The position numbers and the translations under genes are program-made. Below the pieces are notes generated by a model, which had not been told where the DNA came from, made no database searches, and saw nothing but the letters and a program-made list of their open reading frames with translations. Shown here piece by piece: positions 805 to 15,216 of a stretch of DNA of 64,000 nucleotides; position 1 is the stretch's first letter, and every line of letters begins with the position of its first letter. Source of the DNA: Candidatus Parcubacteria bacterium (GTDB taxonomy: Bacteria > Patescibacteriota > Minisyncoccia > Minisyncoccales > JAGMDC01); the NCBI GenBank assembly GCA_023131895.1, contig JAGLYZ010000004.1, positions 29,895-93,894 of the forward strand, read 5' to 3'.

Positions 805-855
805 TTTCTTTTAGATGATGGTATAATAAAAACTGAATTTTAGCAAACTTTGTTT

Positions 856-1965
856 ATGGGTTTATTCAGCGGGAAACAAATTAAAAATTGCCTTGGCGTT
901 GATATTGGAACTAGTTCTATTAAAATCATTGAGCTGTCCAAGCCAAAAGAAAATATAAGATTAGAGAACTACGGCGAAATACCTGTGGAAGGTATTGAAT
1001 TTGATGATTCCAGGATGGATGTCCAAGGCAATAAAAATATTTCTTTTCTTTCTTCTTCAACCAAAGAAGTTTCAAAAGCAATTTCTGTTCTAACAGAAGA
1101 AGCTGGCTTTCGCGCAAAAAAGACTGTATTTTCCATTCCTGATTTTTCTACTTTTTTCACTAGTTTTGATTTGCCGCCCATGAGGGAAAAAGAAATTCCT
1201 GAAGCTATAAAATTTAAAGCAGGAAAATATATTCCTCTACCGCTTTCAGATATGAAAATTGATTGGGCAATTATTGAGGGGACGCCGAGTAAAAAGAAAA
1301 ATCTTTTTAACAAGGAGATAACAGGCACTAAACTGAAAATTCTTTTAGTAACAGTTCCGAATGAAGTAATTTTGAAATATCAAGAGATTGCCAAAATAGC
1401 CGGTTTAGAACTTTTAGCCCTAGAGGCAGAAGTTTTCAGTTTAGTGAGATCATTGATTAAAAAAAATAAAGGAGTTATAATCTTAGTAGATATTGGAGGA
1501 AGAAGCACCACTTGCAGTGTAATTAAGAACGGAGTTTTGCTGTCAAGCCACAGCTTTGATGTTTCCGGCAATGAGCTTACTTATTCTCTTTCCAGATCTT
1601 TGAATATTGATTATAATGAAGCTGAACGGCTTAAGAGAGAAATCGGCATAAGAAAGGGCACCAAAGAGGAAGAGATACTATATCCATTGATTGGTTTAAT
1701 TTTAAAAGAAATTAAAAAACTCTCTGGCTCTTTTTCTCAATCTGGAAATGACAAGGTGTCTAAAATATTTTTAGCTGGCGGAGGAGCTTTAACTCCTGGA
1801 TTGAAAGAATATTTTTCAGAACAGCTGGGGATAAAAACAGTTATTGCCGACCCTTTTGCAAATATTGTCTGCCCTTCTCCATTGACTGAAATTCTTAAAA
1901 AAATGGGGGCGTCTTATGGCATAGCAGTTGGTTCCGCTTTGAAAGGATTAGAAAGTGTTGTATAA
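856..1965 (+). CDS. pilM: Type IV pilus assembly protein PilM (actin-like ATPase fold)
   Basis: GVDIGTSSIKIIEL phosphate-1-like motif, second VDIGGRST motif, FLAGGGA near the C-terminus. First gene of the pil cluster. The ORF track starts at TTG 850; ATG 856 is preferred. Confidence 0.85.
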   Translation: MGLFSGKQIKNCLGVDIGTSSIKIIELSKPKENIRLENYGEIPVEGIEFDDSRMDVQGNKNISFLSSSTKEVSKAISVLTEEAGFRAKKTVFSIPDFSTFFTSFDLPPMREKEIPEAIKFKAGKYIPLPLSDMKIDWAIIEGTPSKKKNLFNKEITGTKLKILLVTVPNEVILKYQEIAKIAGLELLALEAEVFSLVRSLIKKNKGVIILVDIGGRSTTCSVIKNGVLLSSHSFDVSGNELTYSLSRSLNIDYNEAERLKREIGIRKGTKEEEILYPLIGLILKEIKKLSGSFSQSGNDKVSKIFLAGGGALTPGLKEYFSEQLGIKTVIADPFANIVCPSPLTEILKKMGASYGIAVGSALKGLESVV

Positions 1966-2016
1966 TATAGAAGAAAGAGGTAAAATAAAAAAAGAGAAAA
2001 ATTAAAATCAAAAAGC

Positions 2017-2556
2017 ATGGCTTTTAATGTTATTCCAAAAAAAGAAATAGAAAGAAAACCTTGGCTGGATTGGGTTTTTTATTTTTGTTTTATTTTGCTT
2101 ATATTGTCGGTTTTGAGTTATTTTGTTTTGGCATACTCTCTACAAAAAACAGATGAAGCGTTAAACAAAGTAGAAGCAAAAATATCCGAACAGGAGCAAA
2201 GCAAGGAAAACAAAGAGCTTAAAGAAAATCTTCTTGAAAAAGAAAAGAAAATAAATGATTTTTCAAATATACTAAAAGAGCATAGATTATATTCCCAGCT
2301 TTTTAGTTTCATTGAGAGTTTCACCCATCCAGAGGTAGTATTTGCAGGTTTTAATTTTTCCAGCGCAAATTTAATCCTTGCGCTTTCCGGCACAACATCT
2401 AACTTTAAAACATTGGGCGAACAGCTTCTTGTTTTGCAGGCGCAAAGCGATATAAAAAGCGTAGAGCTTTCTAATATATCTTTAATGGAAGACGGAGGCA
2501 TAGATTTTAATTTGGATATTTCTTTAAGTCCTAAAATATTTGATTTGATTAGATAA
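2017..2556 (+). CDS. PilN-like bitopic membrane protein (assignment by position and topology only)
   Basis: Single N-terminal TM helix followed by a coiled-coil-like Lys/Glu-rich segment. Immediately follows pilM. Confidence 0.5.
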   Translation: MAFNVIPKKEIERKPWLDWVFYFCFILLILSVLSYFVLAYSLQKTDEALNKVEAKISEQEQSKENKELKENLLEKEKKINDFSNILKEHRLYSQLFSFIESFTHPEVVFAGFNFSSANLILALSGTTSNFKTLGEQLLVLQAQSDIKSVELSNISLMEDGGIDFNLDISLSPKIFDLIR

Positions 2557-2557
2557 T

Positions 2558-2620
2558 TCACCCTGTTAAATGCTGCTTCGCAGCAATTTTGCCGAAGGCA
2601 AAATTATTTAACAGGGTAAA
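2558..2620 (+). repeat. Palindromic element PE copy 1 (intergenic, pilN-like/pilO-like spacer)
   Basis: TCACCCTGTTAAA ... TTTAACAGGGTA arms enclose hairpins GCTGC-TTC-GCAGC and TTTTGCC-GAA-GGCAAAA. Confidence 0.85.
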
Positions 2621-2625
2621 CAACA

Positions 2626-3204
2626 ATGAAAAGACCTATTATTTTTATAACCATTACATCTTTAATCGTCATTTTACTGGCCTTTTTTGTGCTTTTGCCA
2701 AAATATGAAGAATTAGATGCTAAAGATTATCAACTTGAAGGAAGAAAAGTGGCTCTTGAAAAGATAAATGATTATTTTGAGGATCTTGCTTCTCAAAACA
2801 AAAAATTAGCAGAATACGAAGAATCAATGGCAAAAATTAATTCAGCTTTGCCAGACAAACCTGCCATGCCTTCAGTCCTGAATTTTATTCAAAGGACAGC
2901 TAATGAAAACGGGGTTTCTTTAACATCAGCAGCATTAAGCTCTTCAAGAAAAACAACAAAAACAACAAAGACAGAAGAAACAGGAGCATCAGACATCAAA
3001 GAAAACACATTTTCCATTAGTGTTGCTGGTTCTTATTCTTCTTTTAAAAACTTTCTTTCGGTCTTAGAAAAATCAGCGCGCTTGATTGAGACAGAGACCC
3101 TGACTTTTTTTTCCTTTGGAGGAATGACAATGTATACAGGAATGCCTGATTATTCTTTAGATACTTTTCTTTTTGAGTTACAAATGAAAGTTTATTCTTA
3201 TTAA
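2626..3204 (+). CDS. PilO-like bitopic membrane protein (assignment by position and topology only)
   Basis: N-terminal TM helix, coiled-coil region, position after the pilN-like gene. Confidence 0.45.
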   Translation: MKRPIIFITITSLIVILLAFFVLLPKYEELDAKDYQLEGRKVALEKINDYFEDLASQNKKLAEYEESMAKINSALPDKPAMPSVLNFIQRTANENGVSLTSAALSSSRKTTKTTKTEETGASDIKENTFSISVAGSYSSFKNFLSVLEKSARLIETETLTFFSFGGMTMYTGMPDYSLDTFLFELQMKVYSY

Positions 3205-3212
3205 TTAATATT

Positions 3213-3491
3213 ATGAACCTGAATTTAAACGAAGACAAACAAAAAAGATTAGTGTATTTAATTATAATTCTTATTGTTTTGGTTATAATAGCTTTATTTG
3301 TTTTTAGTAAAAGCTTTTTTGTAAAACAGCCGTCAATCCCTTTAGGTACTAGTTTTGGATTACAAGAAATCAGTATCAATTTTAATATTTTAGAAAATCC
3401 TTTTGTGCAGATGCTTGAACCATTTGAAGAAATTTCTTATCCTTCAGAAGAAATAGAAATAGGCAGAGAAAACCCGTTTATTACATACTAA
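3213..3491 (+). CDS. Small single-pass membrane protein, unknown function
   Basis: ORF with one hydrophobic helix (LVYLIIILIVLVIIALFVF), tightly packed in the pil operon. Confidence 0.35.
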   Translation: MNLNLNEDKQKRLVYLIIILIVLVIIALFVFSKSFFVKQPSIPLGTSFGLQEISINFNILENPFVQMLEPFEEISYPSEEIEIGRENPFITY

Positions 3492-3586
3492 AACATTTTA
3501 ACATTTTAACATTTTAGCATTTAAACATTTCTGATTTCATTTTTTGTTAATATGTTAATATGTTAGTATGTTAATATGTTTAAATG
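3491..3586 (+). repeat. Phased 8-nt repeat array (AACATNNN units, then NNNNATGT units) ending in the pilB start codon
   Basis: Octamers in one register from 3492. ATGs at 3552, 3560, 3568, 3576 and 3584, the last being the pilB start. By-eye alignment shows about 85% identity to the array at 59675-59786. Confidence 0.8.
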
Positions 3587-5311
3587 AGTTTGATAAATCA
3601 GTTAGTAGAAAAAGGTGTCTTAAATAAAAAAGCAGCTGCTTCTTTAAAAAAGGAAATAGAATTATCTGGTAAAAGAGAAGAAGAAATAATTTTACAACAA
3701 GGAATAATTAAGGAAGATGCTTTATTCCAATTAAAAAGCGAGAGTTTGAAGGTTCCTTTAAAAGAAGTTGAGCCATCAGAAGTTCTTTTAGAAGTTTTGA
3801 GATTAATTCCCAGAGATGCTGCTGAGTTTTATCATATGGTTCCTATTAGTAAAAAAGATAGGACATTGGAGATAGGGATGGTTTATCCGGATAATTTAAA
3901 AGCCCAGGAAGCTTTAAAATTTTTAACAAGACGCGAAGGCTATTCTTTCAGAGTTTATCTAATCACTTTATCTAATTTCAGGGAGCTTTTAAAACGATAT
4001 TGGACCCTTAAAAAAGAAGTAAAAAAGGCGCTTACAGAGGTGGAAACAGAAATAGCTGAAGATGAAGTTGAAATTTCTAAGAAAGCGGCTGAATTAGAAA
4101 AGCTGGGAGAAGAGGCTCCTATTTCCAAAATTGTTTCTGTAATTCTAAAACACTCTGTAGACGGGAATGCTTCTGATATCCACATTGAACCAATAAGAGA
4201 ACAGCTGAGAGTAAGGTTTCGTCTTGATGGAATATTGCATTCCTCACTTTTTTTACCTTTAAAAATTCATCCGGCAGTGGTAGCTCGGATTAAGATTTTA
4301 GCAGAGCTAAAAATTGACGAAACTAGGGTTCCTCAAGACGGCAGGATTGGCGCTAAAATTAGCAATAAAGATATTGATTTCAGGGTTTCTACTTTCCCTA
4401 CTATATTGGGCGAGAAAGTAGTGATGAGAGTTCTTGACCCGTCCAAGGGATTAAAAGATTTTAAAAGATTAGGATTAGACGGAAGAAATCTTGAAATTTT
4501 AAACAAAGCAGCTGAAAGACCTTATGGAATGATTTTATCAACTGGGCCTACTGGCTCAGGAAAAAGCACTACATTATATGCTGTTTTACAGATTTTAAAT
4601 AGGGAAGGAGTAAATATTGTTACAATAGAAGATCCAGTGGAGTATTTTATGGAAGGTATTAACCAGTCCCAGACAAAAGAAGAGATTGGCTACGGTTTTG
4701 CTACAGCATTGCGTTCTATTTTAAGGCAGGACCCGGATGTGATTATGGTGGGTGAAATTAGAGATAAAGAGACAGCAGAATTAGCTGTTCATGCTGCTTT
4801 AACCGGGCATATTGTCTTGTCTACCCTTCATACAAATACAGCTGTTGGCGCTATGCCTCGGTTAATTGACTTGGGAATAGAGCCATTTTTACTGCCCCCA
4901 AGCTTAAGCGCAATTTTGGCGCAAAGATTAGTAAGGCGGCTTTGTCCTTTTTGTAAAGAAAAAGTAAAGGCGAATATTAAAGTTAGAGAAAAGATTTTAA
5001 AAGAAATAAATTTTTTGCCAGTTTCTACTAAAGCAGGAATTAAAGTTGATGAACCTATATCTATTTGGCAGGCAAAGGGATGTAAAAAATGCAGGATGCA
5101 GGGATACACTGGAAGGGTTGCTCTTTTTGAAATTTTGGAAATGACTAAAGAGCTTTCAGAAATAGTTTTAAAGGAGCCGTCAGAAAATAATTTCCAAAAA
5201 GAGGCAAAAAGGCAGGGTATGGTTACAATGGCTCAAGACGGCATAATTAAGGTTTTAAATGGAGTTACTTCTATAGAAGAAGTGATTAGGGTTACAAAGG
5301 AAGAAGAATAA
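3584..5311 (+). CDS. pilB: Type IV pilus assembly ATPase PilB (GspE family)
   Basis: Walker A GPTGSGKST, Asp/His boxes, C-terminal tetracysteine (CPFC...CKKC), GSPII_E N-terminal-like domain. Confidence 0.95.
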   Translation: MSLINQLVEKGVLNKKAAASLKKEIELSGKREEEIILQQGIIKEDALFQLKSESLKVPLKEVEPSEVLLEVLRLIPRDAAEFYHMVPISKKDRTLEIGMVYPDNLKAQEALKFLTRREGYSFRVYLITLSNFRELLKRYWTLKKEVKKALTEVETEIAEDEVEISKKAAELEKLGEEAPISKIVSVILKHSVDGNASDIHIEPIREQLRVRFRLDGILHSSLFLPLKIHPAVVARIKILAELKIDETRVPQDGRIGAKISNKDIDFRVSTFPTILGEKVVMRVLDPSKGLKDFKRLGLDGRNLEILNKAAERPYGMILSTGPTGSGKSTTLYAVLQILNREGVNIVTIEDPVEYFMEGINQSQTKEEIGYGFATALRSILRQDPDVIMVGEIRDKETAELAVHAALTGHIVLSTLHTNTAVGAMPRLIDLGIEPFLLPPSLSAILAQRLVRRLCPFCKEKVKANIKVREKILKEINFLPVSTKAGIKVDEPISIWQAKGCKKCRMQGYTGRVALFEILEMTKELSEIVLKEPSENNFQKEAKRQGMVTMAQDGIIKVLNGVTSIEEVIRVTKEEE

Positions 5312-5316
5312 AAATT

Positions 5317-5682
5317 ATGAAAAATATTTTATTAGTTGAAGATGATCCTTTTTTAATAGATATTTATACTACTAAGCTGGAACAGGATGATTTTGCCGTG
5401 CAAGTGGCAAAAAACGGAAAAAAAGCATTTGAATTATTAAAAAAAGAGATTCCAGACATTTTGGTCTTAGACATTGTTTTGCCGCAAGTTGACGGCTGGG
5501 AAGTTTTATCTGAACTTAAAAAAAATGCTCAATGGAAAGCAATACCAGTAATTATTCTTTCTAATCTTGGCCAGAAAGTAGAAGTAAAACGAGGACTGGA
5601 TTTAGGCGTTCAAAAATATCTTATTAAAGCCCATTATACTCCTGCAGAGGTAGTGGAGGAAATTAAAAAAATACTCAAATAA
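5317..5682 (+). CDS. Stand-alone response regulator receiver domain (CheY/PilH-like)
   Basis: 121 aa. ILLVEDD acidic pocket, phospho-acceptor context LVLDIVLP, conserved K in LIKAHY. Confidence 0.85.
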   Translation: MKNILLVEDDPFLIDIYTTKLEQDDFAVQVAKNGKKAFELLKKEIPDILVLDIVLPQVDGWEVLSELKKNAQWKAIPVIILSNLGQKVEVKRGLDLGVQKYLIKAHYTPAEVVEEIKKILK

Positions 5683-5686
5683 AATT

Positions 5687-6754
5687 ATGGCTACTTATCA
5701 AGAACAACTTAATGAACTGCTTCAATTAACGGTTCAAGAACAGGCATCTGACCTCCATCTTTCTGTTGATCACCCTCCAGTTTTAAGAATTAGCGGCCGT
5801 TTAATTCCTTTGACTAAAAAAAGCAAGTTATCAACAACAGATACACAGGGATTGGCTTTAGCTTTAATGACAGAGGAACAGCAGCAAAGATTTTCACAGC
5901 AAAAAGAAATTGATTTTTCCTACCATTTTGAGGATAAAGCCAGATTCAGGGTAAATATCTTTTATCAAAGAGGAAATGTTTCCTGCGCTCTCCGTTTGAT
6001 TCCTTTTAAAATTAGAACTATTGAAGAGCTGGGTTTGCCGCCTATTCTCCATGAATTTACCAAGCAAGTTCAAGGTTTCGTTATTGTTACCGCACCATCA
6101 AGTCATGGCAAGTCCACTACATTAGCTGCTATGATTGACGAAATAAACCATACAAGGACAGACCATATTATTACTATTGAGGATCCTATTGAATATGTTT
6201 TTGATGACGATAAATCAGTGATTGACCAAAGAGAAGTTTATCAAGATACTTTATCATTTGCCAGGGCGCTCCGTTCAACTTTTCGCCAGGATCCGGATGT
6301 GATTATGGTGGGCGAGATGAGGGATCCGGAAACCATAGCTACAGCTATTACTGCTGCAGAAACCGGGCATTTAGTTTTTGCTACTTTGCATACTAATTCT
6401 GCGTCTCAGACAATTCATAGAATTGTTGACAGTTTTACAGCAGAACAACAGGATCAGATTCGAGCCCAGTTATCCGGTTCTTTACTCGGCGTTATCTCGC
6501 AGCGTTTAGTGCCTAGAATTAGAGGCGGTTTGATTCCAGCTTGTGAAATAATGCTTTCCAGCCCGGCAGTGGCTAATTTAATTCGGGAAAACAAAATTCA
6601 TGAACTGCCTTTAGTTATTGAAACAAGCAGAAAGAAAGGAATGGTTTCTTTAAATTACGCTTTAGCCCAATTAGTCCGCAAGAGAGAAGTTGCTTTAAAA
6701 AATGCCTTGACTTATTCTTCAAATCCTGTTGAGCTAAAAAAACTTTTAGACTAA
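5687..6754 (+). CDS. pilT: Twitching-motility / pilus retraction ATPase PilT
   Basis: ASDLHL motif, P-loop APSSHGKST, DPIEY, RQDPDVIMVGEMRD, TGHLVFATLHT. Confidence 0.9.
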   Translation: MATYQEQLNELLQLTVQEQASDLHLSVDHPPVLRISGRLIPLTKKSKLSTTDTQGLALALMTEEQQQRFSQQKEIDFSYHFEDKARFRVNIFYQRGNVSCALRLIPFKIRTIEELGLPPILHEFTKQVQGFVIVTAPSSHGKSTTLAAMIDEINHTRTDHIITIEDPIEYVFDDDKSVIDQREVYQDTLSFARALRSTFRQDPDVIMVGEMRDPETIATAITAAETGHLVFATLHTNSASQTIHRIVDSFTAEQQDQIRAQLSGSLLGVISQRLVPRIRGGLIPACEIMLSSPAVANLIRENKIHELPLVIETSRKKGMVSLNYALAQLVRKREVALKNALTYSSNPVELKKLLD

Positions 6755-6769
6755 ATTAGACATTTTATC

Positions 6770-7984
6770 ATGAAATTTAAATACAAAGCAAGAACAGAAG
6801 AAGGGGAAATGCAAGAGGGTGTTATAGAAGCAAGCTCAAAAGAAAGCGCTTCGGATATCTTAGAAAGCTACAATCTTTTTGTGGTCTCTTTAGTTGAATC
6901 CCAGCTTATTCCTGTTTGGTTAAGGGATATAAAGATTTTTAATATGGTAAGCCAGAAAGATGTAGTGATTTTTTCCAGACAGCTTTCTATGATGTTTGAG
7001 GCAAATGTTCCTTTAATAGAGTCGTTGGAAACATTGGGTTCGCAGCAAAAAAATCCTATTTTTAAAGAAAATGTCTTAGAAATAGCCAAAACAGTAGAGG
7101 GAGGAACATCTTTGTCAGAGGCATTTAGTAAATATCCGGAAGTTTTTTCCCCTTTTTATGTTAATATGATAAAGTCAGGCGAGGCATCAGGAAAGCTTTC
7201 TGAAGTTTTAAAGTATTTAGCAGATCGTTTGGAAAGGCAGTATGAGTTTATGTCAAAAATAAAAGGGGCAATGATTTATCCAATTTTAGTGATATTTGTT
7301 TCTTTTATTGTAATTGGCATAATTGTTTTCTTTGTTATGCCCCAGTTTGCTGGCATATTTGCCGCTTCTGAAAATGAACTGCCTTTATTCACCAAGATAG
7401 TTCTTGGCGCGTCTGAATTTTTAAGGAACTGGATTTTAATCATACTGGTTTTAGTTTTAGGTCTTTTAGGTTTTGCTTTTTTCTATCTCAGGAAAACTAA
7501 GGAAGGCAAGGAGTTTATAGACGAACATATATTAAATATTCCTGTTTTAGGCAATTTTTTGAAAATGTTTTATCTCTCACGTTTTGCCCAGAATCTTTCT
7601 ACTTTAATTGCAGGCGGCCTGCCTATTGCCCAAGCCCTGAGAATCTGCAGTGATATTGTTAATAATAATATCTATAAAGACATTGTTTTAAAGACCCAGG
7701 AAGGAGTTAAGAAAGGAAGAACCATAAACTCTGTTTTAGTCAGGTATCCTGATTATTTTCCGCCTATTTTTACACAGATGGTTGCTACTGGAGAAAAAAC
7801 AGGACAGCTGGAAGACAGCTTGAGCAAGATAGCTATTTTCTTTCAAAAAGAAGTAGAAAGGGCTCTTGATGTTCTTTTAAGCGTTATTGAACCAGTATTG
7901 ATTGTGTTTTTAGCTTTGATCGTAGGAATCATTGCAGCTGCTGTCTTTATCCCTATGTACGACTTCATTGGAACAGCAATGTAA
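6770..7984 (+). CDS. pilC: Type IV pilus platform protein PilC (T2SS F family)
   Basis: Two T2SSF-like repeats, three TM segments, about 400 aa, follows pilB/pilT. Confidence 0.9.
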   Translation: MKFKYKARTEEGEMQEGVIEASSKESASDILESYNLFVVSLVESQLIPVWLRDIKIFNMVSQKDVVIFSRQLSMMFEANVPLIESLETLGSQQKNPIFKENVLEIAKTVEGGTSLSEAFSKYPEVFSPFYVNMIKSGEASGKLSEVLKYLADRLERQYEFMSKIKGAMIYPILVIFVSFIVIGIIVFFVMPQFAGIFAASENELPLFTKIVLGASEFLRNWILIILVLVLGLLGFAFFYLRKTKEGKEFIDEHILNIPVLGNFLKMFYLSRFAQNLSTLIAGGLPIAQALRICSDIVNNNIYKDIVLKTQEGVKKGRTINSVLVRYPDYFPPIFTQMVATGEKTGQLEDSLSKIAIFFQKEVERALDVLLSVIEPVLIVFLALIVGIIAAAVFIPMYDFIGTAM

Positions 7985-8072
7985 AAGTATTTTTTTAAAA
8001 TGCTTTTACCCCCTCAGAGTTTTCCACAGGTACAATTTCCAAAAATGAGTTATAATAAAAAAAGAAAATAAT

Positions 8073-8136
8073 TCACCCTGTTAAATCTTTCCGAAAATTT
8101 CGGAAAGAAAATCAAAGATTTTATTTAACAAGGTAA
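8073..8136 (+). repeat. Palindromic element PE copy 2 (intergenic, upstream of pilin gene; right arm degenerate)
   Basis: TCACCCTGTTAAAT ... ATTTAACAAGGTA with hairpins CTTTCCGAAA-AT-TTCGGAAAG and AAAATC-AAA-GATTTT. Confidence 0.8.
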
Positions 8137-8173
8137 AGGTCGAAAAATTAAAAGCTTTTAATTTAAATTTAAT

Positions 8174-8596
8174 ATGAAAAAATTTACTAAACGAGGTTTT
8201 ACCTTGATTGAACTATTAGTCGTCATCGCTGTTATCGGAATTCTGTCCTCAATCGTGTTGGTCTCCCTATCCGGCGCAAGAGATAAAGGTTATGATGCTC
8301 AAATTAAAGGAGAATTAGGTCAGGTAAGAGCAGATACAGAGATACATTATGATAATGCTGAGAGTTATACAGGATATACAATACCTACAAATTTATTGCC
8401 TCCTGCTTGCAGTGAAGATGGAGCTTATAATGTGGTAGTTTCAGCAGATGGACAGGATTACGCAGCTTGGGGAGATTTATGCTCATCAGCAGTAGATACT
8501 TGTGATTTTTGTATTGATTCTACTGGTGTAGCTTGTACGACTGTTGCAGCATCTCCCCACCCTACTGCTCTAGCTCCTGTTTGTGCTTGTCCATAA
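8174..8596 (+). CDS. Type IV pilin (prepilin-type N-terminal cleavage/methylation domain)
   Basis: Leader MKKFTKRG followed by FTLIELLVVIAVIGIL. C-terminal cysteines. Confidence 0.85.
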   Translation: MKKFTKRGFTLIELLVVIAVIGILSSIVLVSLSGARDKGYDAQIKGELGQVRADTEIHYDNAESYTGYTIPTNLLPPACSEDGAYNVVVSADGQDYAAWGDLCSSAVDTCDFCIDSTGVACTTVAASPHPTALAPVCACP

Positions 8597-8655
8597 TTCA
8601 TAAAGTATTCTTGTTGATTTGTAGAAATTCTTTATTTGTTTTTTGAGATTTATTT

Positions 8656-8698
8656 AAGAAGCTTTACGAAGGACTGTCTTTCGTAAAGCTTCTTTTTT
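8656..8698 (+). terminator. Rho-independent terminator after the first pilin gene
   Basis: 15-bp stem AAGAAGCTTTACGAA/TTCGTAAAGCTTCTT followed by a T-run. Confidence 0.7.
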
Positions 8699-8725
8699 GT
8701 GATATAATTATTAATACTACTACTA

Positions 8726-9190
8726 ATGACAATTAAAAAATACTCTAAACAAGGTTTTACATTGATTGAATTATTAGTAGTTATTGCTGTTATTGGAGTT
8801 CTTACTTCAATGATTTTTTCATTTACCAAGGCAAAAGATAAAGCCAGAAATACAAGAATTGTAATAGCTATCAGAGAAATAAAGCCCATTTTTGAAATGA
8901 TTTATGACGATGATTTTAAATATGATAACATTTGTAATAGTCCTGATATTAGAATAGACATTTCTGGTTATGAGAATGAATTAACCGCTATTAACGATGA
9001 AGTTTCAAAAAATGGTGGTGAAGCAAAATGTTATGCTGATGGAGATAATTACTGCGTATATTCCAAGTTGAATGTTGTAGGCATTGATCCAAGACAATAT
9101 TTTTGTGTTGACAGCACTGGAAATGCAGTCACTACACCTGTTGATCCTGGTATTTTACATTGTAAAGCCGGCAGTTATACCTGTCCGTAA
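8726..9190 (+). CDS. Type IV pilin (second paralog)
   Basis: Leader MTIKKYSKQG followed by FTLIELLVVIAVIGVL. C-terminal Cys pairs. Confidence 0.85.
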   Translation: MTIKKYSKQGFTLIELLVVIAVIGVLTSMIFSFTKAKDKARNTRIVIAIREIKPIFEMIYDDDFKYDNICNSPDIRIDISGYENELTAINDEVSKNGGEAKCYADGDNYCVYSKLNVVGIDPRQYFCVDSTGNAVTTPVDPGILHCKAGSYTCP

Positions 9191-10013: not shown

Positions 10014-10850
10014 ATGGTAAATATTATTTTTTATATCTTTGTTTTTATTTTTGGTTTAACAGTTGGTTCATTTTTGAATTGTGTTATTTACAGGTTAGAA
10101 AAAAAGGAGAGCGCTTTAAAAGGGCGCTCTTATTGTCCCCATTGCAAGCATCAGCTTGCCTGGTATGATTTAATTCCAGTATTAAGTTTTATAATCCTTA
10201 AAGGCAAATGCCGTTATTGCTATAAAAAGATTTCTCTACAGTATCCATTAGTAGAAATAGCAACAGCAAGTTTATTTACTTTTATTTTTTGGCATTTGAG
10301 CTTTGGATTTGATTTGGAGCAATTTGGAACAATTTGGATTTTGGATTTTCTCGCTCTATTCGCAATTACTAGTTTTTTGATTGTGATTTTCGTCTATGAC
10401 TTAAAGCACTACATTATCCCAGACAAAGTAATTTTTCCTGCTATAGCAATAGTTTTTTTATATAAATTGTTTGAAATTTTGAATTTGGAATTTGTTTCGG
10501 ATTTCGGATTTCGGATTTCGGATTTTAAGCCGTTATTATATTCACTTGGTATAGCATTTGCCGCTTCCGCCTTTTTTTTAACGATTGTCCTTGTCACTCG
10601 CGGCAAGGGTATGGGAATTGGCGATATAAAACTGGCTTTTTTAATGGGTCTTTTGCTCGGCTGGCCAAATATCTTTGTTGCTCTCTTTCTTGCTTTTCTT
10701 ATTGGTGCTATAATAGGGATAGGTTTGATTTTAGCCCGCAAGAAAACTCTGAAATCAGAAGTTCCATTTGGCCCGTTTTTGGTAACTGGGACATTTATAG
10801 CGATGTTCTATGGTAATCAGATAATTGGATGGTATTTGAATTTATTTTAG
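10014..10850 (+). CDS. pilD: Prepilin peptidase / N-methyltransferase PilD (peptidase A24)
   Basis: Zinc-binding CPHC...CRYC, polytopic membrane protein, catalytic Asp contexts (FVYDLKHYIIPD and GMGIGDIKL). Confidence 0.9.
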   Translation: MVNIIFYIFVFIFGLTVGSFLNCVIYRLEKKESALKGRSYCPHCKHQLAWYDLIPVLSFIILKGKCRYCYKKISLQYPLVEIATASLFTFIFWHLSFGFDLEQFGTIWILDFLALFAITSFLIVIFVYDLKHYIIPDKVIFPAIAIVFLYKLFEILNLEFVSDFGFRISDFKPLLYSLGIAFAASAFFLTIVLVTRGKGMGIGDIKLAFLMGLLLGWPNIFVALFLAFLIGAIIGIGLILARKKTLKSEVPFGPFLVTGTFIAMFYGNQIIGWYLNLF

Positions 10851-10928: not shown

Positions 10929-11498
10929 ATGTTAAAATGTTATAATGTTAAAATGAATAAGGCAATGACCTTGATTGAAGTTTTGGTTGTTATTGCCATA
11001 ATGCTTATTCTTATGGCAGTAGCAGTATTTGTAAATCCCAGGCCTTCAGTAGAGCTTGATAACGCTGCTCGGCAATTGGTAAGCGACCTCCGCCGCGCCC
11101 AAAACATGGCAATGTCAGCTTCAACTCAAATAGATGGATGGGGTAATGAGATTGTTCCTTGCGGCTATGGAATTTATACTCCAAATACACAGAAATATGT
11201 TATATTTTATAACGAGACAGATTGTTCAAAATTTCAGCACTGGGGAGGACCCAATCCGCCCTGGCAGGGTAGTATAGATTTTGAAACAGTGGATTTTACA
11301 GATGTAGCTCCGGGCATTACAATAACTCAAGGAGTTTCTTTAAGCATTTATTTTATTCCTCCAAGTGGAACTACTTATATTAATGGAGATTATCCACTTA
11401 TTCCTCCTCCACCTTTGCCTTACTTTGAACTTACAGCTTCCGACGGCTCTATTAGAACTGTCACTGTCACTTCAGCCGGGAAGATTGAAATACAGTAA
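10929..11498 (+). CDS. Minor pilin, GspH/FimT-like (start probably ATG 10953)
   Basis: MNKA-MTLIEVLVVIAIM prepilin-type N-terminus. First of four consecutive pilin-like genes. The upstream part of the ORF lies in the 8-nt ATG ladder. Confidence 0.7.
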   Translation: MLKCYNVKMNKAMTLIEVLVVIAIMLILMAVAVFVNPRPSVELDNAARQLVSDLRRAQNMAMSASTQIDGWGNEIVPCGYGIYTPNTQKYVIFYNETDCSKFQHWGGPNPPWQGSIDFETVDFTDVAPGITITQGVSLSIYFIPPSGTTYINGDYPLIPPPPLPYFELTASDGSIRTVTVTSAGKIEIQ

Positions 11499-11664: not shown

Positions 11665-12208
11665 ATGGAAAATAGAGTTTTTATTATAATTGACGGAAGT
11701 AATTTCTATCATCGTTTAAAAGAATGAATTAAAACTTACAAATCTTTTAAATTTTGATTATGAAAAATTTACCCAATTTTTAATTAGCAAAAGAAGTTTA
11801 GTTTTAAAGAAATATTATATTGGAGCAATCAAAGAAGAATATAATAATCTCAAAAGTAGAATATTAATGAAAAATCAAAGAAAATTATTAGGCAAGCTCC
11901 AAAAACAAGGATGGGAAATAGGTTTTGGCCATATGTTAAAAACTGATAAATATCACGAAAAAGGAGTTGATGTTTTAATGGCAGTTGACTTATTAGCTGG
12001 GGCATGTGAAAATATATATGATACAGCAATTTTAGTAAGCTCTGACACTGATCTTATCCCAGCAATTGAAAAAGCTCGTTCAATGAAAAAGAAAATAGAA
12101 TATATTGGTTTGTCGCATAAACCTTCTTACGCTTTAATAGCAAATTCAGATATAAGAAAATTACTGATTGAGGACGAGTTGTTAAGGTGTTTCAAAGAAA
12201 CAAAATAA
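11665..12208 (+). pseudogene. NYN/LabA-like (DUF88) domain gene with a +1 frameshift
   Basis: ATG 11665 encodes MENRVFIIIDGSNFYHRLKE then TGA at 11725. Skipping the single T at 11725 continues as ELKLTNLLNFDYEKF...GVDVLMAVDLL...SSDTDLIPAIE into the ORF ending at 12208. Confidence 0.7.
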
Positions 12209-12231: not shown

Positions 12232-12879
12232 ATGTTTAAATGTTTAAATGCTAAAAAGTTAAAATGTGAGGGTTTCAGTTTGCTTGAGGTTTTGGTTGCC
12301 ATTACAGTGCTTATTGTTGGCTTGGTTGGTGCCATAGGTTTGATTGTTTATAATGTTTCTATCAGCAGGGCAAGCCCGGAGAAAATTATCGCTGTTAATT
12401 TAGCGCAGGAGGGAATAGAAGTGGTGAGAAACATCCGTGACAGCAACTGGCTGGCAGGTGTGGTTTGGGATCAAGATATTCCTTCTGGCAATTCTATTCC
12501 TATTTTTACAGATAATAATAGAAATGATTGGCCTTCTGACCCAGATAAATGGAGACTTAGTCATATAGGGGCTGCGGAAAGCTGGAAAGAAGATGTTTAC
12601 TATGATGATATTGATAAATTTTATGGCCAGTCAAAAAAGCAAAGCACTAACCCTGCTCAATTTCCAGACGATTGGATTTCAACAATTTTCACTCGTAAGA
12701 TCACTATTACTGAGTTTTTTGTTATTGATGAGAATCCACGTAAGTTCGCTTTTATTAAGATTGTTATGGCTAAGTTTTGGCCAGACCAAGTAAAAGTAAT
12801 TTCCCAAGTTGATTGGACTGACCGCAGCGGGAATTCTCATACCATCATTCTTGAAAACCATTTGTATAATTGGAGATAG
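12232..12879 (+). CDS. Minor pilin, PilV-like
   Basis: ...KLKCEG followed by FSLLEVLVAITVLIVGL. The only in-frame ATG (12232) is the first rung of the 8-nt ATG ladder. Confidence 0.65.
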   Translation: MFKCLNAKKLKCEGFSLLEVLVAITVLIVGLVGAIGLIVYNVSISRASPEKIIAVNLAQEGIEVVRNIRDSNWLAGVVWDQDIPSGNSIPIFTDNNRNDWPSDPDKWRLSHIGAAESWKEDVYYDDIDKFYGQSKKQSTNPAQFPDDWISTIFTRKITITEFFVIDENPRKFAFIKIVMAKFWPDQVKVISQVDWTDRSGNSHTIILENHLYNWR

Positions 12880-12906: not shown

Positions 12907-13446
12907 ATGGAACACATAACACATAACAAAAAAGCTTTTACTCTTATTGAAATTCTTGTTGCAGTAACTATTTTTGTATTAGTTGTTGCTGCTGCAATAG
13001 GAATTTTTGTTTCCAGTATGCAAGGCAAGGAGCGAGTTAATCAATTAAAAGAAATAGAAGACAATGCTCGCTATGTAATGGAAATGATGAGCAGGGAAAT
13101 TAGAATGGGTTATGAAATTGCCAGTGATGAAGCAGATACCTTTGATTCAGAAATAGATTTTGTTGATTCTTCAGTTGTTTCAATAAAACTATGCAGAGCA
13201 GACGAAAATGGTAATTGCGATTCAAATGGAGATTATTTAGCAAAAAGAGAAGAAAGCGCTGCTCCTTCAAGTAATCATTTGATCACTTCCAGCAAAGTAA
13301 AAATTACTAATCTTATTTTCTATGTTAATGATTTTGATTTAACTAATAGTCCCCAACCAAGAGTAACTATCTCAATGACTGTTGCTTCAAAAGATGATGC
13401 AGTAAGCATGGATTTCCAGACCACTCTTTCTCCAAGAATATATTAA
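12907..13446 (+). CDS. Minor pilin, PilW-like
   Basis: MEHITHNKKA followed by FTLIEILVAVTIFVLVV. The leader is encoded by CACATAA heptamer repeats. Confidence 0.6.
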   Translation: MEHITHNKKAFTLIEILVAVTIFVLVVAAAIGIFVSSMQGKERVNQLKEIEDNARYVMEMMSREIRMGYEIASDEADTFDSEIDFVDSSVVSIKLCRADENGNCDSNGDYLAKREESAAPSSNHLITSSKVKITNLIFYVNDFDLTNSPQPRVTISMTVASKDDAVSMDFQTTLSPRIY

Positions 13447-13463: not shown

Positions 13464-15137
13464 ATGTATTTTAAAATTTTTCATAATCAAAAAGGACAAA
13501 TCGCCTTATTAATCACCCTCGTCATTTTAGGCGCTATTTTATCCATTGGCGCTGGTTTAACTTTGGTTACTATTAAAGAAATGAGAATGTCAAAGACCAC
13601 AGTAGAATCAATTCAAGCTTTTTTTGTAGCTGATAGCGGAATGGAATATGCTTTGCACGAAACCTATAAAAGAGGAGGCACGCCGCCAACTGGTACTTGT
13701 GATAATATTGGCGAAGGCGAATATTGTCTGGATACTGATGAAGGAATTGAATCTATTGGAACAGTGAAAGGAAAAAGAAGAACTGTTCGGATTATTAATA
13801 ACTGGGCAAAAGTTTATGGAGGGACAGGCGATGATGAGATATCAGAGGCCTTTCGAATTCCTGGTGGAGGATATAGTTTGCTTATGGATACAACATCTTA
13901 TGGACCTCACGCTGCAGCAGGAGATTTTGTTATTGTGGATATAGATGCAGATGGAACACCAGAATTAGGAAAGGCGTTTGGAGGAAATAATAGAGAGACA
14001 ATCTACGAGGCAGTTTCACATAGGTTGCCAAGTGGAGGATATATTATAACCGGCAAAACAAAATCTTATGGTAATGGAGATTATGATATATTTGTACTTA
14101 AATTAGATGCTAATAAAGATCCACTATGGCAAAAGACTTTTGGAGGACCAGATTTTGAGGAAACACTTGACATTAAACTGACTCCGGCCGCTTCAAATGG
14201 AGGGTGTATATTATGGGGTGGAACAAAATCTTATGGCGCCGGAGATGAAGATACTCTTGTCATAAAATTAGATGATAATGGAAACCAGGAATGGGCGTAT
14301 ACTTTTGGAGGAGTAAATTGTGATAGGGGGGGATCAATGGATTTAGCTGGTTCAGGATATATTCTTATGGGCGACACAGAATCATACGGAGAGGGGTATA
14401 AGGATCTTTTTCTTATTAAATTAAATAGTAATGGTATTTTACAATGGGCAAAAACATTTGGATACAGCAACAGAAGTGAATATTGCGCTTCAAATATCAC
14501 AACTTCAGATGGGGGGCAAATAATGAGCACTTATGATATGTATAATCGTGTTGGAGGTTCTTTCAGAAAAATGTGTGGCACTTTAATTAAATTAGATAGT
14601 AGTGGTGATCAAGAGTGGGTAACAAGATGTTTTTCTCCAGGTGGCTGGGGCGGGCTTGGCGGGCCAGAAAAAGCATTAGATGGAGGCTATTTTAGTGTGG
14701 GAAGTTACTACGTAGGTGGTGGCAAATGGCATGGTTTTTTTGTTAAATTTGATGATAATGGAAATGAGCAATGGACAAAATATTTTGCAGGAGGTGGTTC
14801 GGACTCTTTTTCTAATCTTAGTGAAAACTATACTTTAGATAGAGGATATTTTATGGTTGGTAATACCACATCTTGGGGAGCAGGGGGTAAAGATGGCATT
14901 TTTTTGAAGATGTCTAAAGATGGTTTGATATATGATTGTCCGCCTTTTACGAGCGCTGCTGCGCCGATTTGCAGTTCAGTAGGTGCTGTGCCAACCCATG
15001 ACATAACAGGAGACATAATAGTTACTCCCCTTGTTGTTGACGAAACAAACTTTACTTTTGACATAGAAGATGACGTTGTTATAGATTCTTCTAATGTCTG
15101 CACTGGAGCTGGAGCAAAATGGATAGAGATTAGATAA
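13464..15137 (+). CDS. PilX_N-like minor pilin fused to a repeat (beta-propeller-like) domain; candidate pilus tip protein
   Basis: N-terminus GQIALLITLVILGAILSIG resembles the PilX N-terminal domain. Followed by about 8 repeats of about 50 aa (W..tFGG...GGy.l.G.T.SYG.G..D.l.iKld.nG...W). Confidence 0.6.
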   Translation: MYFKIFHNQKGQIALLITLVILGAILSIGAGLTLVTIKEMRMSKTTVESIQAFFVADSGMEYALHETYKRGGTPPTGTCDNIGEGEYCLDTDEGIESIGTVKGKRRTVRIINNWAKVYGGTGDDEISEAFRIPGGGYSLLMDTTSYGPHAAAGDFVIVDIDADGTPELGKAFGGNNRETIYEAVSHRLPSGGYIITGKTKSYGNGDYDIFVLKLDANKDPLWQKTFGGPDFEETLDIKLTPAASNGGCILWGGTKSYGAGDEDTLVIKLDDNGNQEWAYTFGGVNCDRGGSMDLAGSGYILMGDTESYGEGYKDLFLIKLNSNGILQWAKTFGYSNRSEYCASNITTSDGGQIMSTYDMYNRVGGSFRKMCGTLIKLDSSGDQEWVTRCFSPGGWGGLGGPEKALDGGYFSVGSYYVGGGKWHGFFVKFDDNGNEQWTKYFAGGGSDSFSNLSENYTLDRGYFMVGNTTSWGAGGKDGIFLKMSKDGLIYDCPPFTSAAAPICSSVGAVPTHDITGDIIVTPLVVDETNFTFDIEDDVVIDSSNVCTGAGAKWIEIR

Positions 15138-15157
15138 GTAATTGTGCAGAAATTTCA

Positions 15158-15181
15158 CAGGGGCCCGACCCCTGTTTTTTC
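15158..15181 (+). terminator. Rho-independent terminator after the pilus operon
   Basis: CAGGGG-CCCGA-CCCCTG followed by TTTTTT. The loop sequence is the same as in the REP family. Confidence 0.7.
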
Positions 15182-15216
15182 TTTTAAAAAGGGGTTATTT
15201 GAGATATAATTTAATT

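What the first reader, a model, noticed from the sequence alone, without database searches (positions are those of the whole stretch)
13464..15137. Last gene of the minor-pilin operon fuses a PilX-type N-terminus to a roughly 8-bladed repeat domain (possible PilY1 substitute)
The 557-aa protein starts with a PilX_N-like hydrophobic segment (GQIALLITLVILGAILSIG) rather than a cleavable G/FTLIE motif. It continues with about eight roughly 50-aa repeats (W.ktFGG ... GGy.i.G.T.SYG.G..D.l.iKLd.nG...W), which suggests a beta-propeller. It ends in a Cys-containing tail. No pilY1 is present in the locus. PilY1 tip adhesins carry a C-terminal propeller, so this may combine the PilX and PilY1 roles in one polypeptide. 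For an organism that probably depends on attachment or DNA uptake, this is the candidate contact surface.
Basis: inference. Interest (0 to 1): 0.6.

Follow-up and report, generated by a model that had tools for sequence, protein, structure and literature searches.

The report
Pilus-tip minor pilin carrying a beta-propeller
The last gene of this ultrasmall bacterium's type IV pilus operon encodes a small pilin-like "carrier" fused to a seven-bladed propeller domain, most likely a pilus-tip binding protein of a kind already described in related bacteria, here with a different propeller family.

Summary
The ORF at 13464..15137 (557 aa) is real. It is the terminal gene of a GspH/I/J/K-ordered minor-pilin operon in a complete type IV pilus locus of a Parcubacteria (CPR) genome. 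It has three parts.

1. Residues 1-113 form a PilX_N-type pilin module. It has a short basic leader, a conserved Gly11, a 60-residue helix and a 4-stranded sheet (AF2 pLDDT above 90).
2. Residues 114-488 hold seven repeats, not eight, of 52-57 aa. They form a seven-bladed SBBP/DUF5122-like beta-propeller (pLDDT about 90). The best PDB match is the CylK propeller, not PilY1.
3. Residues 489-557 form an acidic tail with 3 Cys and no confident predicted structure.

In syntenic relatives the same slot holds a 127-129 aa protein that ends where the propeller begins, so the propeller is an add-on. The closest N-module relatives carry other add-ons: RCC1, FG-GAP, LVIVD, GLUG, Fib_succ_major and an unknown domain. 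Only one other lineage (P0124, 38% identity) has the same architecture.

No PilY1 is encoded in the window, and the propeller is not PilY1-like in sequence. The closest published case is TM7x PilX2, a PilX with an RCC1 propeller that is needed for efficient host binding. I rate this a new variant of a known kind, of moderate interest. Its function is inferred, not shown.

The parts
13464..15137 (+). Whole gene: 557-aa modular PilX-type minor pilin (identical to NCBI MCK4520860.1)
   Evidence: ORF list. Exact match in the protein collection.
13464..13496 (+). Short basic leader MYFKIFHNQKG (residues 1-11) ending in conserved Gly11, the putative prepilin-peptidase -1 residue
   Evidence: G11 is at least 90% conserved in 67 family members. 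Leaders of relatives are listed. Cleavage itself is inferred.
13497..13673 (+). Alpha-1 helix (residues about 12-70). The hydrophobic first half is QIALLITLVILGAILSIGAGLTLV, with no Glu at +5. The PilX_N motif is SIQAFFVADSGMEYAL.
   Evidence: PF14341 matches residues 13-61. AF2 gives a helix at 10-70 with pLDDT 92-98.
13698..13793 (+). Four-stranded antiparallel sheet of the pilin head (residues 79-110), with a Cys79/Cys88 pair
   Evidence: AF2 strands 79-82, 85-90, 95-101 and 104-110, pLDDT above 90. The small syntenic homologues end here.
13803..14927 (+). Seven-bladed SBBP/DUF5122-like beta-propeller (residues 114-488). Blades in nt: 13803-13964, 13965-14126, 14127-14291, 14292-14447, 14448-14615, 14616-14771 and 14772-14927.
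   Evidence: Repeat alignment and HMM. The 96-sequence alignment consensus shows 7 repeats. AF2 gives 28 strands with pLDDT about 90. Foldseek matches CylK at E 1e-18. NF047494 scores E 8e-19.
14928..15134 (+). Acidic C-terminal tail (residues 489-557; pI 4.05; Cys492, Cys503, Cys546; ends CTGAGAKWIEIR). Its structure is unknown.
   Evidence: Conserved only in orthologue P0124. pLDDT is below 50 in both AF2 runs.
15157..15185 (+). Terminator-like hairpin plus T-run closing the operon
10929..11498 (+). Minor pilin 1 (GspH/FimT-like), first gene of the H-I-J-K-ordered set
   Evidence: N_methyl E 3.6e-6. gspH E 3e-7, below the cut-off.
12232..12879 (+). Minor pilin 2 (PilV/GspI-like)
   Evidence: N_methyl hit. 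type_IV_pilV E 4e-9, below the cut-off.
12907..13446 (+). Minor pilin 3 (PilW/GspJ/ComGF-like)
   Evidence: N_methyl E 2.5e-7. ComGE, GspI, ComGF and GspJ hits, all below the cut-offs.
10014..10850 (+). Prepilin peptidase PilD, the candidate processing enzyme
   Evidence: A24_N_bact E 4e-35 and Peptidase_A24 E 1e-15.
850..9190 (+). Remaining pilus machinery: pilM, pilN-like, pilO, pilB, response regulator, pilT, pilC and two major-pilin candidates
   Evidence: Pfam hits. pilN is assigned by position only.

Best explanation
The protein is a modular, tip-located minor pilin of the PilX/GspK class.

Proposed mechanism:
1. Residues 1-113 form a complete, minimal pilin. After membrane insertion, and probably after PilD removes the 11-residue leader at Gly11, its hydrophobic helix joins the three preceding minor pilins (GspH-, GspI/PilV- and GspJ/PilW-like).
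2. Together they form the priming complex that starts pilus assembly. That complex then sits at the distal tip of the filament.
3. Because the protein lacks Glu5, as GspK-type cap subunits do, it is expected to be the topmost subunit.
4. The seven-bladed propeller and the acidic Cys tail (residues 114-557) are grafted onto the C-terminus of this carrier. They are therefore held at the very tip, where they act as the ligand-binding surface, probably for a glycan or protein on a host cell or substrate.
5. PilB extends the pilus and PilT retracts it, which turns tip binding into attachment or pulling.

Shown here: the domain architecture, the operon position, the predicted pilin fold, the propeller fold, the add-on nature of the propeller, and the absence of PilY1.

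Inferred: PilD cleavage, tip location, the adhesin role and the ligand class.
For: - Locus. A complete T4aP-like set is present: pilM, pilN (assigned by position only), pilO, pilB, pilT, pilC, pilD and pilins. The gene order of H-like, I/V-like, J/W-like minor pilins followed by this gene mirrors gspHIJK and fimU-pilVWX. A terminator follows directly.
- Carrier. PilX_N hits the query, with orthologues above the cut-off: P0124 at 31.5 bits, P0129 at 27.5 and P0229 at 27.7. AF2 with family sequences in the alignment gives helix 10-70 plus a 4-stranded sheet at pLDDT 92-98. The N-module family has 676 members at E<=1e-3, mostly 110-150 aa. Gly11 is at least 90% conserved. The best PDB sequence relative of the family profile is the Thermus tip pilin ComZ, though the match is weak (E 0.073, motif SVQAFYAAEAG).
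- Add-on. In L001, L002 and L004 the syntenic gene before ligA is 127-129 aa, aligns to query residues 3-112, and stops where the propeller starts. This is the only PilX_N gene in the 64-kb window, so it must also supply the core PilX role.
- Cargo. The propeller is confidently predicted. Of the 120 best homologues, 119 share only the propeller. By eye, most have Sec-type signal peptides, and several carry T9SS, PKD, dockerin, FN3 or PGF-CTERM modules, so they are extracellular display or binding proteins. Similar propellers occur in phage structural proteins and giant-virus fibre proteins.
- Precedent. TM7x PilX2 has a non-canonical signal peptide and a C-terminal heptabladed propeller, and its deletion lowers host binding from 10.6% to 4.6% (PMC11623550). 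The modular-pilin concept comes from Raynaud et al. 2021 (PMC8179133).
- Conservation. A full-length orthologue, P0124, shares 38% identity end to end. The RCC1-type relative P0123 occupies the same operon position.
Against: - There is no experimental evidence for this protein or this organism.
- PilX_N scores at or below Pfam's cut-off for the query itself: 22.0 and 25.5 bits against a cut-off of 25.5.
- The N-terminus lacks the canonical F+1/E+5 motif, so PilD cleavage is unproven. The authors of the TM7x study found no predicted PilD signal in PilX1 or PilX2.
- The tail (489-557) has no confident structure, and its role is unknown.
- A roughly 45-kDa globular cargo must pass through the cell envelope. 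That is plausible for a secretin-less CPR envelope, but it was not tested.
- No ligand can be inferred. The only characterised close structural relative, CylK, is an enzyme and not an adhesin.
- Near-identical strain variants show no hypervariability: 3 substitutions and one 4-aa indel.
Confidence: 0.68

Rival explanations
1. It is a membrane-anchored cell-surface protein. The PilX_N helix acts only as an uncleaved signal-anchor, so the propeller is displayed on the cell body and never enters a pilus.
For: The N-terminus lacks F+1 and E+5. The TM7x study found no predicted PilD signal for PilX1 or PilX2. Most propeller homologues are ordinary secreted or anchored surface proteins.
Against: The gene occupies the conserved fourth slot of the minor-pilin operon across relatives. 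Its N-module is a complete predicted pilin fold and not just a TM helix. Gly-1 is conserved in at least 90% of the family. It is the only PilX-type gene in the window. GspK-class tip subunits normally lack Glu5 (established knowledge).
Confidence: 0.13
2. It is a DNA receptor of a competence pilus. Like Thermus ComZ, the tip pilin would use its large module to capture extracellular DNA for uptake.
For: The N-module profile's best PDB sequence hit is ComZ, although the match is weak at E 0.073. A ComFC-like gene (Pribosyltran plus a double zinc ribbon) flanks the locus. CPR bacteria are thought to depend on nucleotide scavenging (general knowledge).
Against: The propeller is strongly acidic (pI 4.58, net charge -17), and so is the tail (pI 4.05, net -9). 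Orthologue P0124's propeller has pI 4.23 and net charge -36. No known DNA-binding domain was detected. In TM7x the propeller-bearing PilX2 system did not contribute to competence.
Confidence: 0.06
3. It is a pilus- or surface-displayed enzyme. The propeller would be catalytic (CylK-like alkylation, or a glycoside hydrolase, lyase or sialidase-like activity) and would modify or degrade host surface polymers rather than merely bind them.
For: The best solved relatives are the enzyme CylK (sequence E 1e-9, Foldseek E 1e-18). Weaker matches include PL24 lyases, sialidases and GH43-type hydrolases.
Against: CylK's active site lies between its propeller and an N-terminal Ca-binding domain, and that domain is absent here (own knowledge, not tested). 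Identity to CylK is only about 22%. The other enzyme matches are generic propeller similarity (TM 0.3-0.4, rmsd above 7 A). Homologues are mostly paired with adhesion or display modules.
Confidence: 0.08

Closest known systems
PilX2 of Nanosynbacter lyticus TM7x (Saccharibacteria), ISME J 2025 wraf119 / PMC11623550
   Same: Both are Patescibacterial PilX-named minor pilins with a non-canonical signal peptide, and each is the largest pilin of its locus. [quoted passage not shown] TM7x PilX2 is needed for efficient host binding but not for filament extrusion.
   Different: The TM7x propeller is built of RCC1 repeats, while this one is SBBP/DUF5122-like. This protein has an extra 69-aa acidic Cys tail. 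A close N-module relative found here (P0123) does carry the RCC1 type.
Modular type IV pilins (S. sanguinis PilB with vWA, PilC with lectin; Raynaud et al. 2021, PMC8179133)
   Same: A small pilin module acts as a carrier, and a bulky functional module is grafted on through a short linker. The subunit is predicted to be exposed at the tip and to mediate adhesion. Module architectures are highly diverse, including in CPR phyla.
   Different: Those pilins are defined by a canonical class III signal peptide (IPR012902/N_methyl), which this protein lacks. It uses the PilX_N type instead. That survey would therefore not have captured it.
ComZ of Thermus thermophilus (PDB 6qvi)
   Same: ComZ is a PilX_N-type tip pilin of similar size (534-residue chain) that carries a large non-pilin module. 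It is the best PDB sequence match of the N-module family profile, through the shared motif S-x-Q-A-[FY]-[FY]-x-A-[DE]-x-G.
   Different: The match is weak (E 0.073, 25 residues). ComZ's module is a beta-solenoid inserted into the pilin fold and is implicated in DNA binding. Here a propeller is appended after the pilin fold, and it is acidic.
PilY1/PilC tip adhesins (PF05567/IPR008707)
   Same: Both are tip-associated, have a seven-bladed propeller, and are encoded with the core minor pilins. The window has no PilY1, so this protein is the only large tip candidate.
   Different: PilY1 is not a pilin. Its propeller is the docking and Ca-binding module, and its N-terminal region is the adhesin. 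There is no sequence match to PF05567, and PilY1 is not among the top 50 structural neighbours.
GspK / PilX cap subunit of the GspHIJK-type priming complex
   Same: It is the fourth gene after H-, I- and J-like genes. It lacks Glu5 and is larger than the other minor pilins because of an extra domain.
   Different: GspK's extra domain is an alpha-domain inserted in the sheet. No GspK family model hits the query.
CylK C-terminal propeller and secreted SBBP/DUF5122 propeller proteins (LipL53 family)
   Same: The same repeat family and a seven-bladed fold. The scores are phmmer E 1e-9, Foldseek E 1e-18 with TM 0.59, and NF047494 E 8e-19.
   Different: Those proteins have Sec or lipoprotein signals and other partner domains, and none of the 119 best homologues has the pilin N-module or the tail. 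The NF047494 score of 67.7 bits is far below its 400-bit cut-off.

Membership tests
PilX_N-domain minor pilins (PF14341) | Match to PF14341 at or above the gathering score of 25.5 bits | tested here: inconclusive
   The full protein scores 22.0 bits, E 1.6e-4. The isolated residues 1-113 score 25.5 bits, exactly at the cut-off. Orthologue P0124 scores 31.5 bits. Of 67 small family members, 42 hit PilX_N at E<=0.01.
PilX_N-domain minor pilins (PF14341) | Type IV pilin fold: a long N-terminal helix packed on a 4-stranded antiparallel sheet | tested here: met
   AF2 with family sequences in the alignment gives helix 10-70 and strands 79-82, 85-90, 95-101 and 104-110, with pLDDT 92-98. This is a prediction only.
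GspK/PilX-class cap subunit of the core minor-pilin set | Encoded as the last gene after GspH-, GspI/PilV- and GspJ/PilW-like genes; no Glu at +5 | tested here: met
   Gene order and weak family hits support this. The same order is seen in L001, L002, L004 and L008. The residue at +5 is Leu (sequence).
GspK/PilX-class cap subunit of the core minor-pilin set | Processed by prepilin peptidase and located at the filament tip | not testable with these tools
   The only evidence is the conserved Gly at -1 and a pilD gene in the locus.
Modular type IV pilins sensu Raynaud et al. 2021 | N-terminal IPR012902/N_methyl class III signal peptide | tested here: not met
   No N_methyl or TIGR02532 hit on this protein, while the three upstream pilins do hit.
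Modular type IV pilins sensu Raynaud et al. 2021 | A complete pilin module followed by an independent functional module | tested here: met
   Small syntenic homologues end at query residue 112. The propeller folds independently. The propeller's homologues lack the pilin part.
TM7x PilX2-type propeller pilin | C-terminal heptabladed propeller on a PilX-type pilin | tested here: met
   Seven blades on a PilX_N carrier.
TM7x PilX2-type propeller pilin | Propeller made of RCC1 repeats; sequence homology to TM7x PilX2 | tested here: not met
   No RCC1 hit on the query. The repeats are SBBP/DUF5122-like. Direct comparison with the TM7x sequence was not possible.
PilY1/PilC (PF05567, IPR008707) | Sequence membership of the PilY1 C-terminal propeller family | tested here: not met
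   No PF05567 hit at E<=1. PilY1 is absent from the top 50 Foldseek PDB matches.
PilY1/PilC (PF05567, IPR008707) | Non-pilin protein with a Sec signal peptide | tested here: not met
   The N-terminus is a pilin module.
SBBP / DUF5122-type seven-bladed propeller | Seven tandem repeats of about 52 aa (W-x-K-T-F-GG ... DGGYII-G-T-S-x-G ... D-x-w-L-I-K-x-D-x-x-G) forming a 7-bladed propeller | tested here: met
   CylK propeller match: E 1e-18, TM 0.59.
SBBP / DUF5122-type seven-bladed propeller | Pfam or NCBIfam model hit above the curated cut-off | tested here: not met
   DUF5122 scores E 0.19 (12.5 bits against 27). PF06739 does not hit. NF047494 scores 67.7 bits against a cut-off of 400. Many homologues carry a precomputed PF17164 hit.

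The most novel reading that the evidence does not exclude
The PilX carrier of this Parcubacteria clade may be a cassette system. A conserved pilin module, plus a conserved extreme C-terminal motif, would accept interchangeable ligand-binding modules. That exchange would set which host or surface each ultrasmall episymbiont can attach to.

The C-terminal motif is [FL]-[EDG]-E-x-[RK]-P, and the query ends W-I-E-I-R. The observed modules include four unrelated propeller families (SBBP, RCC1, FG-GAP, LVIVD), plus GLUG, Fib_succ_major, a weak tail-collar-like match and an unknown 200-aa domain.

The SBBP version in this window would be one rare allele of such a host-range determinant. Some genomes carry tandem alternative tip sets (L019).
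Probability: 0.3. Interest if true: 0.6.

Novelty: new variant of a known kind. Interest (0 to 1): 0.4.

Why it matters
CPR/Patescibacteria are thought to live attached to other microbes, and how they recognise their hosts is largely unknown. The only experimental handle so far is TM7x PilX2.

This gene shows that the same design, a PilX-type tip pilin carrying a propeller, also exists in Parcubacteria with a different propeller family. The nearest carrier relatives carry at least five other modules. That makes the fourth minor-pilin slot a concrete and easily found candidate for the host-specificity determinant in uncultivated CPR genomes.

It also supplies a defined soluble domain (residues 114-557) that could be expressed and screened for ligands. 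The protein itself is already annotated in NCBI as a PilX_N protein, so the gain is interpretive, not a new discovery.

Tried and rejected
- A word-index homologue search with residues 1-114 alone returned nothing, not even the query itself. The exhaustive HMMER search was needed instead.
- The closest genome by PilD (Nealsonbacteria L009, 71% identity) could not be used, because its contig ends inside the third minor pilin.
- A metagenome scan with the full protein found 13 loci. All were propeller-only proteins with Sec signals, and none hit the N-module HMM.
- Foldseek with the second model, run to find pilin-fold neighbours, was dominated by propeller matches.
- I tested whether the C-terminal tail docks back onto the pilin module, which would make the propeller an insertion. 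Neither AF2 run gave any confident structure for residues 491-557, so this stays unresolved.
- I looked for hypervariability in near-identical variants. P0270 and P0271 differ by only H65Y, D80N, M302I and one 4-aa loop indel. With two variants there is no sign of diversifying selection.
- PilY1 homology was rejected.
- The DNA-receptor idea was weakened by the charge analysis.
- I considered a gene-fusion artefact from a frameshift or misassembly and rejected it. The same end-to-end architecture occurs in P0124 on five independent contigs and in two further cluster members.
Full report
OBSERVATION. The ORF at 13464..15137 (+) exists and encodes 557 aa. The exact protein is already in NCBI as MCK4520860.1, 'pilus assembly PilX N-terminal domain-containing protein [Candidatus Parcubacteria bacterium]'. 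The window is AT-rich (GC 0.30-0.40).

The gene lies at the end of a complete type IV pilus locus. The locus holds a ComFC-like gene (136-804, minus strand), pilM, a pilN-like gene (assigned by position only), pilO, pilB, a response regulator, pilT and pilC. Two pilins follow, then an IS200/Y1-like ORF, pilD, and three N_methyl minor pilins whose weak best hits are GspH, PilV/GspI and GspJ/ComGF. The target comes last. It starts 17 nt after the previous pilin gene, and a terminator-like hairpin at 15157-15175 follows it. ligA, ftsW/rodA and gyrA lie downstream.

No PilY1 family match was found on the protein. The ten largest other ORFs downstream of gyrA in the window (19-64 kb) are all housekeeping genes.

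ANATOMY. (a) N-module, residues 1-113. PF14341 PilX_N matches residues 13-61. It scores 22.0 bits in the full protein and 25.5 bits, exactly Pfam's cut-off, in the isolated module.

An exhaustive HMMER search with residues 1-113 against 1.84 billion representatives found 676 relatives at E<=1e-3. Of the best 149, 93 are shorter than 160 aa. Of 67 small members, 42 hit PilX_N. The family shares a short basic leader, a Gly at the query's position 11 that is at least 90% conserved, and then a hydrophobic helix without Glu at +5.

The first AF2 run had no alignment coverage here and gave pLDDT below 50 for residues 31-96. A second run included family sequences. It gave a 61-residue helix (10-70) and a four-stranded sheet (79-110) at pLDDT 92-98. 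That is the classical pilin fold. The family profile's best PDB sequence match is the Thermus tip pilin ComZ, through the SxQAFYAAxxG motif. The match is weak at E 0.073.

(b) Propeller, residues 114-488. There are seven repeats of 52-57 aa, 18-41% identical to each other. The consensus of 96 homologues also shows seven repeats. AF2 predicts 28 strands with pLDDT about 90.

The repeats belong to the SBBP/DUF5122 kind. NF047494 scores E 8e-19 but far below its cut-off. DUF5122 scores only E 0.19. Many homologues carry PF17164. The best solved relative is the CylK propeller, with phmmer E 1e-9 and Foldseek E 1e-18 at TM 0.59. PilY1 is not among the top 50.

(c) Tail, residues 489-557. It is acidic (pI 4.05) with Cys492, Cys503 and Cys546. 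Its pLDDT is below 50 in both models.

THE PROPELLER IS AN ADD-ON TO A CONSERVED CARRIER. Of the 120 best full-length hits, 119 share only the propeller. By eye, most have ordinary Sec-type signal peptides, and several carry display modules such as T9SS sorting domains, PKD, dockerin, FN3 or PGF-CTERM. None shares the N-module or the tail.

Conversely, related Parcubacteria loci found through PilD keep the same gene order: pilC, pilins, pilD, three minor pilins, a small PilX_N protein, then ligA. In L001, L002 and L004 that protein is 127-129 aa, and in L008 it is an 84-aa ORF that aligns only to the N-terminal helix. The 127-129 aa proteins align to query residues 3-112 and end exactly where the propeller begins. 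The target is the only PilX_N gene in the window, so it must also perform the core role.

The architecture is not an assembly artefact. P0124 (565 aa, five contigs) is 38% identical from leader to last residue, including the three tail cysteines and the ending RWMEIR against KWIEIR.

MODULE DIVERSITY. The N-module's closest relatives all carry add-ons, and they differ from one another. Most of these relatives score E<1e-10.
- P0123 carries RCC1 repeats (E 2e-60). It sits at the same operon position in L022.
- P0178 carries FG-GAP repeats.
- P0129 carries LVIVD repeats.
- P0229 carries GLUG motifs.
- P0209 carries Fib_succ_major.
- P0140 has a weak phage tail-collar hit, below the cut-off.
- Eleven proteins share an unknown domain of about 200 aa.

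Of the 16 closest long relatives, 14 end in [FL]-[EDG]-E-x-[RK]-P whatever their module. I cannot explain this motif.

On the P0124 contigs, the SBBP-type gene is followed by a second PilV-like, PilW-like and PilX_N set.

MECHANISM. Part of this is shown and part is inferred. Shown: the architecture, the position, the predicted folds and the add-on nature of the propeller.

Inferred from established knowledge of GspHIJK and FimU-PilVWX priming complexes: the N-module inserts into the membrane, is probably cleaved at Gly11 by the locus PilD, and caps a complex with the three upstream minor pilins. That complex primes assembly and ends up at the filament tip. The propeller and tail are thereby presented distally as a ligand-binding surface, and PilB/PilT extension and retraction convert binding into attachment.

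Support by analogy comes from two published cases. TM7x PilX2 is a PilX with a non-canonical signal peptide and a heptabladed RCC1 propeller. Its deletion lowered host binding from 10.6% to 4.6% without abolishing the filaments (PMC11623550; published as ISME J 2025 wraf119). S. sanguinis modular pilins provide the general concept (PMC8179133). Propellers of this fold also sit in phage structural proteins and giant-virus fibre proteins.

RIVALS.
- A membrane-anchored surface protein that never enters a pilus is not excluded, because cleavage is unproven. The complete pilin fold, the conserved Gly-1 and the fixed operon slot argue against it.
- A ComZ-like DNA receptor is disfavoured by the strongly acidic propeller (pI 4.58, net -17; orthologue net -36) and tail. 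In TM7x the PilX2-bearing pilus did not contribute to competence.
- A displayed enzyme is suggested only by CylK and by generic propeller-enzyme matches.

COMPARISON AND NOVELTY. In function the protein resembles PilY1, as a large propeller-bearing tip protein in a locus without PilY1. It fails PilY1 membership on sequence and on being a pilin. In PilY1 the propeller is the docking module and not the cargo.

It fits the 'modular pilin' concept but lacks the N_methyl signature that defines the published set. It matches the TM7x PilX2 design but uses a different propeller family.

I therefore rate it a new variant of a known kind. The SBBP version is rare: two 50%-identity clusters among the best 150 N-module relatives, and none in the metagenome scan.

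Interest is moderate at 0.4. A specialist would not be surprised by the design. The module-swapping pattern on one carrier is a useful, testable lead for CPR host specificity.

LIMITS.
- There is no experimental evidence.
- The tail has no confident predicted structure.
- Only the top 150 of the 676 N-module relatives were seen.
- The strain-level variation sample is tiny.

Noticed in passing
window 11665-12208 (+): The NYN-domain gene inserted between minor pilin 1 and minor pilin 2 is frameshifted. The first 20 aa (MENRVFIIIDGSNFYHRLKE) are in one frame and the rest is in the next. An intact 179-aa orthologue, 86-90% identical, sits after pilD in L022:1589-2128. This is either a pseudogene or an assembly error.
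   Followed up: partly
window 9239-9955 (+): An IS200-like Y1 transposase-domain ORF (Y1_Tnp E 8e-11) lies between the two major-pilin candidates and pilD.
   Followed up: no
L022:1589-5987 and 8134-8861; L009:10981-11286: The pilin operons of relatives are peppered with small, unrelated and possibly selfish or defence-type genes. These include NYN, 23S_rRNA_IVP, PDDEXK_3, and HEPN plus NTP_transf_2. The same kind of insertion occurs at different points in different genomes.
   Followed up: no
L019:1891-3672 (also L020, L021): Directly after the only full-length orthologue (P0124) comes a second PilV-like gene (285 aa), a PilW-like gene (170 aa) and a second PilX_N gene, which the contig end cuts. 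This looks like a tandem alternative minor-pilin (tip) set.
   Followed up: partly
C-termini of P0121-P0134, P0147, P0178; window 15099-15134: A clade-specific extreme C-terminal motif, [FL]-[EDG]-E-x-[RK]-P, is kept in 14 of the 16 closest long relatives whatever module they carry. The query and P0124 end in W-[IM]-E-I-R. It may belong to the carrier or act as a signal. AF2 gives no structure for it.
   Followed up: partly
L022:4140-5987: The PilW/GspJ-like minor pilin upstream of the RCC1-type PilX (P0123) is itself enlarged to 615 aa. More than one tip subunit can therefore carry extra mass in this group.
   Followed up: no
P0121, P0122, P0125-P0128, P0130, P0132-P0134, P0147: Eleven close N-module relatives share an unannotated, Cys-rich C-terminal domain of about 200 aa (motif GQTF..D..G.L..I.VW) with no Pfam hit. 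It may correspond to the unassigned 'beta-jelly-roll-like' domain reported for TM7x PilX1.
   Followed up: no
window 136-804 (-): A ComFC-type gene (double zinc ribbon plus a phosphoribosyltransferase domain) is divergently placed next to pilM. This hints at a link between the locus and DNA uptake.
   Followed up: partly
window 3213-3491 (+): A 92-aa ORF with one predicted hydrophobic segment and no family hit lies between pilO and pilB. It could be a PilP-like or other alignment-complex component.
   Followed up: no
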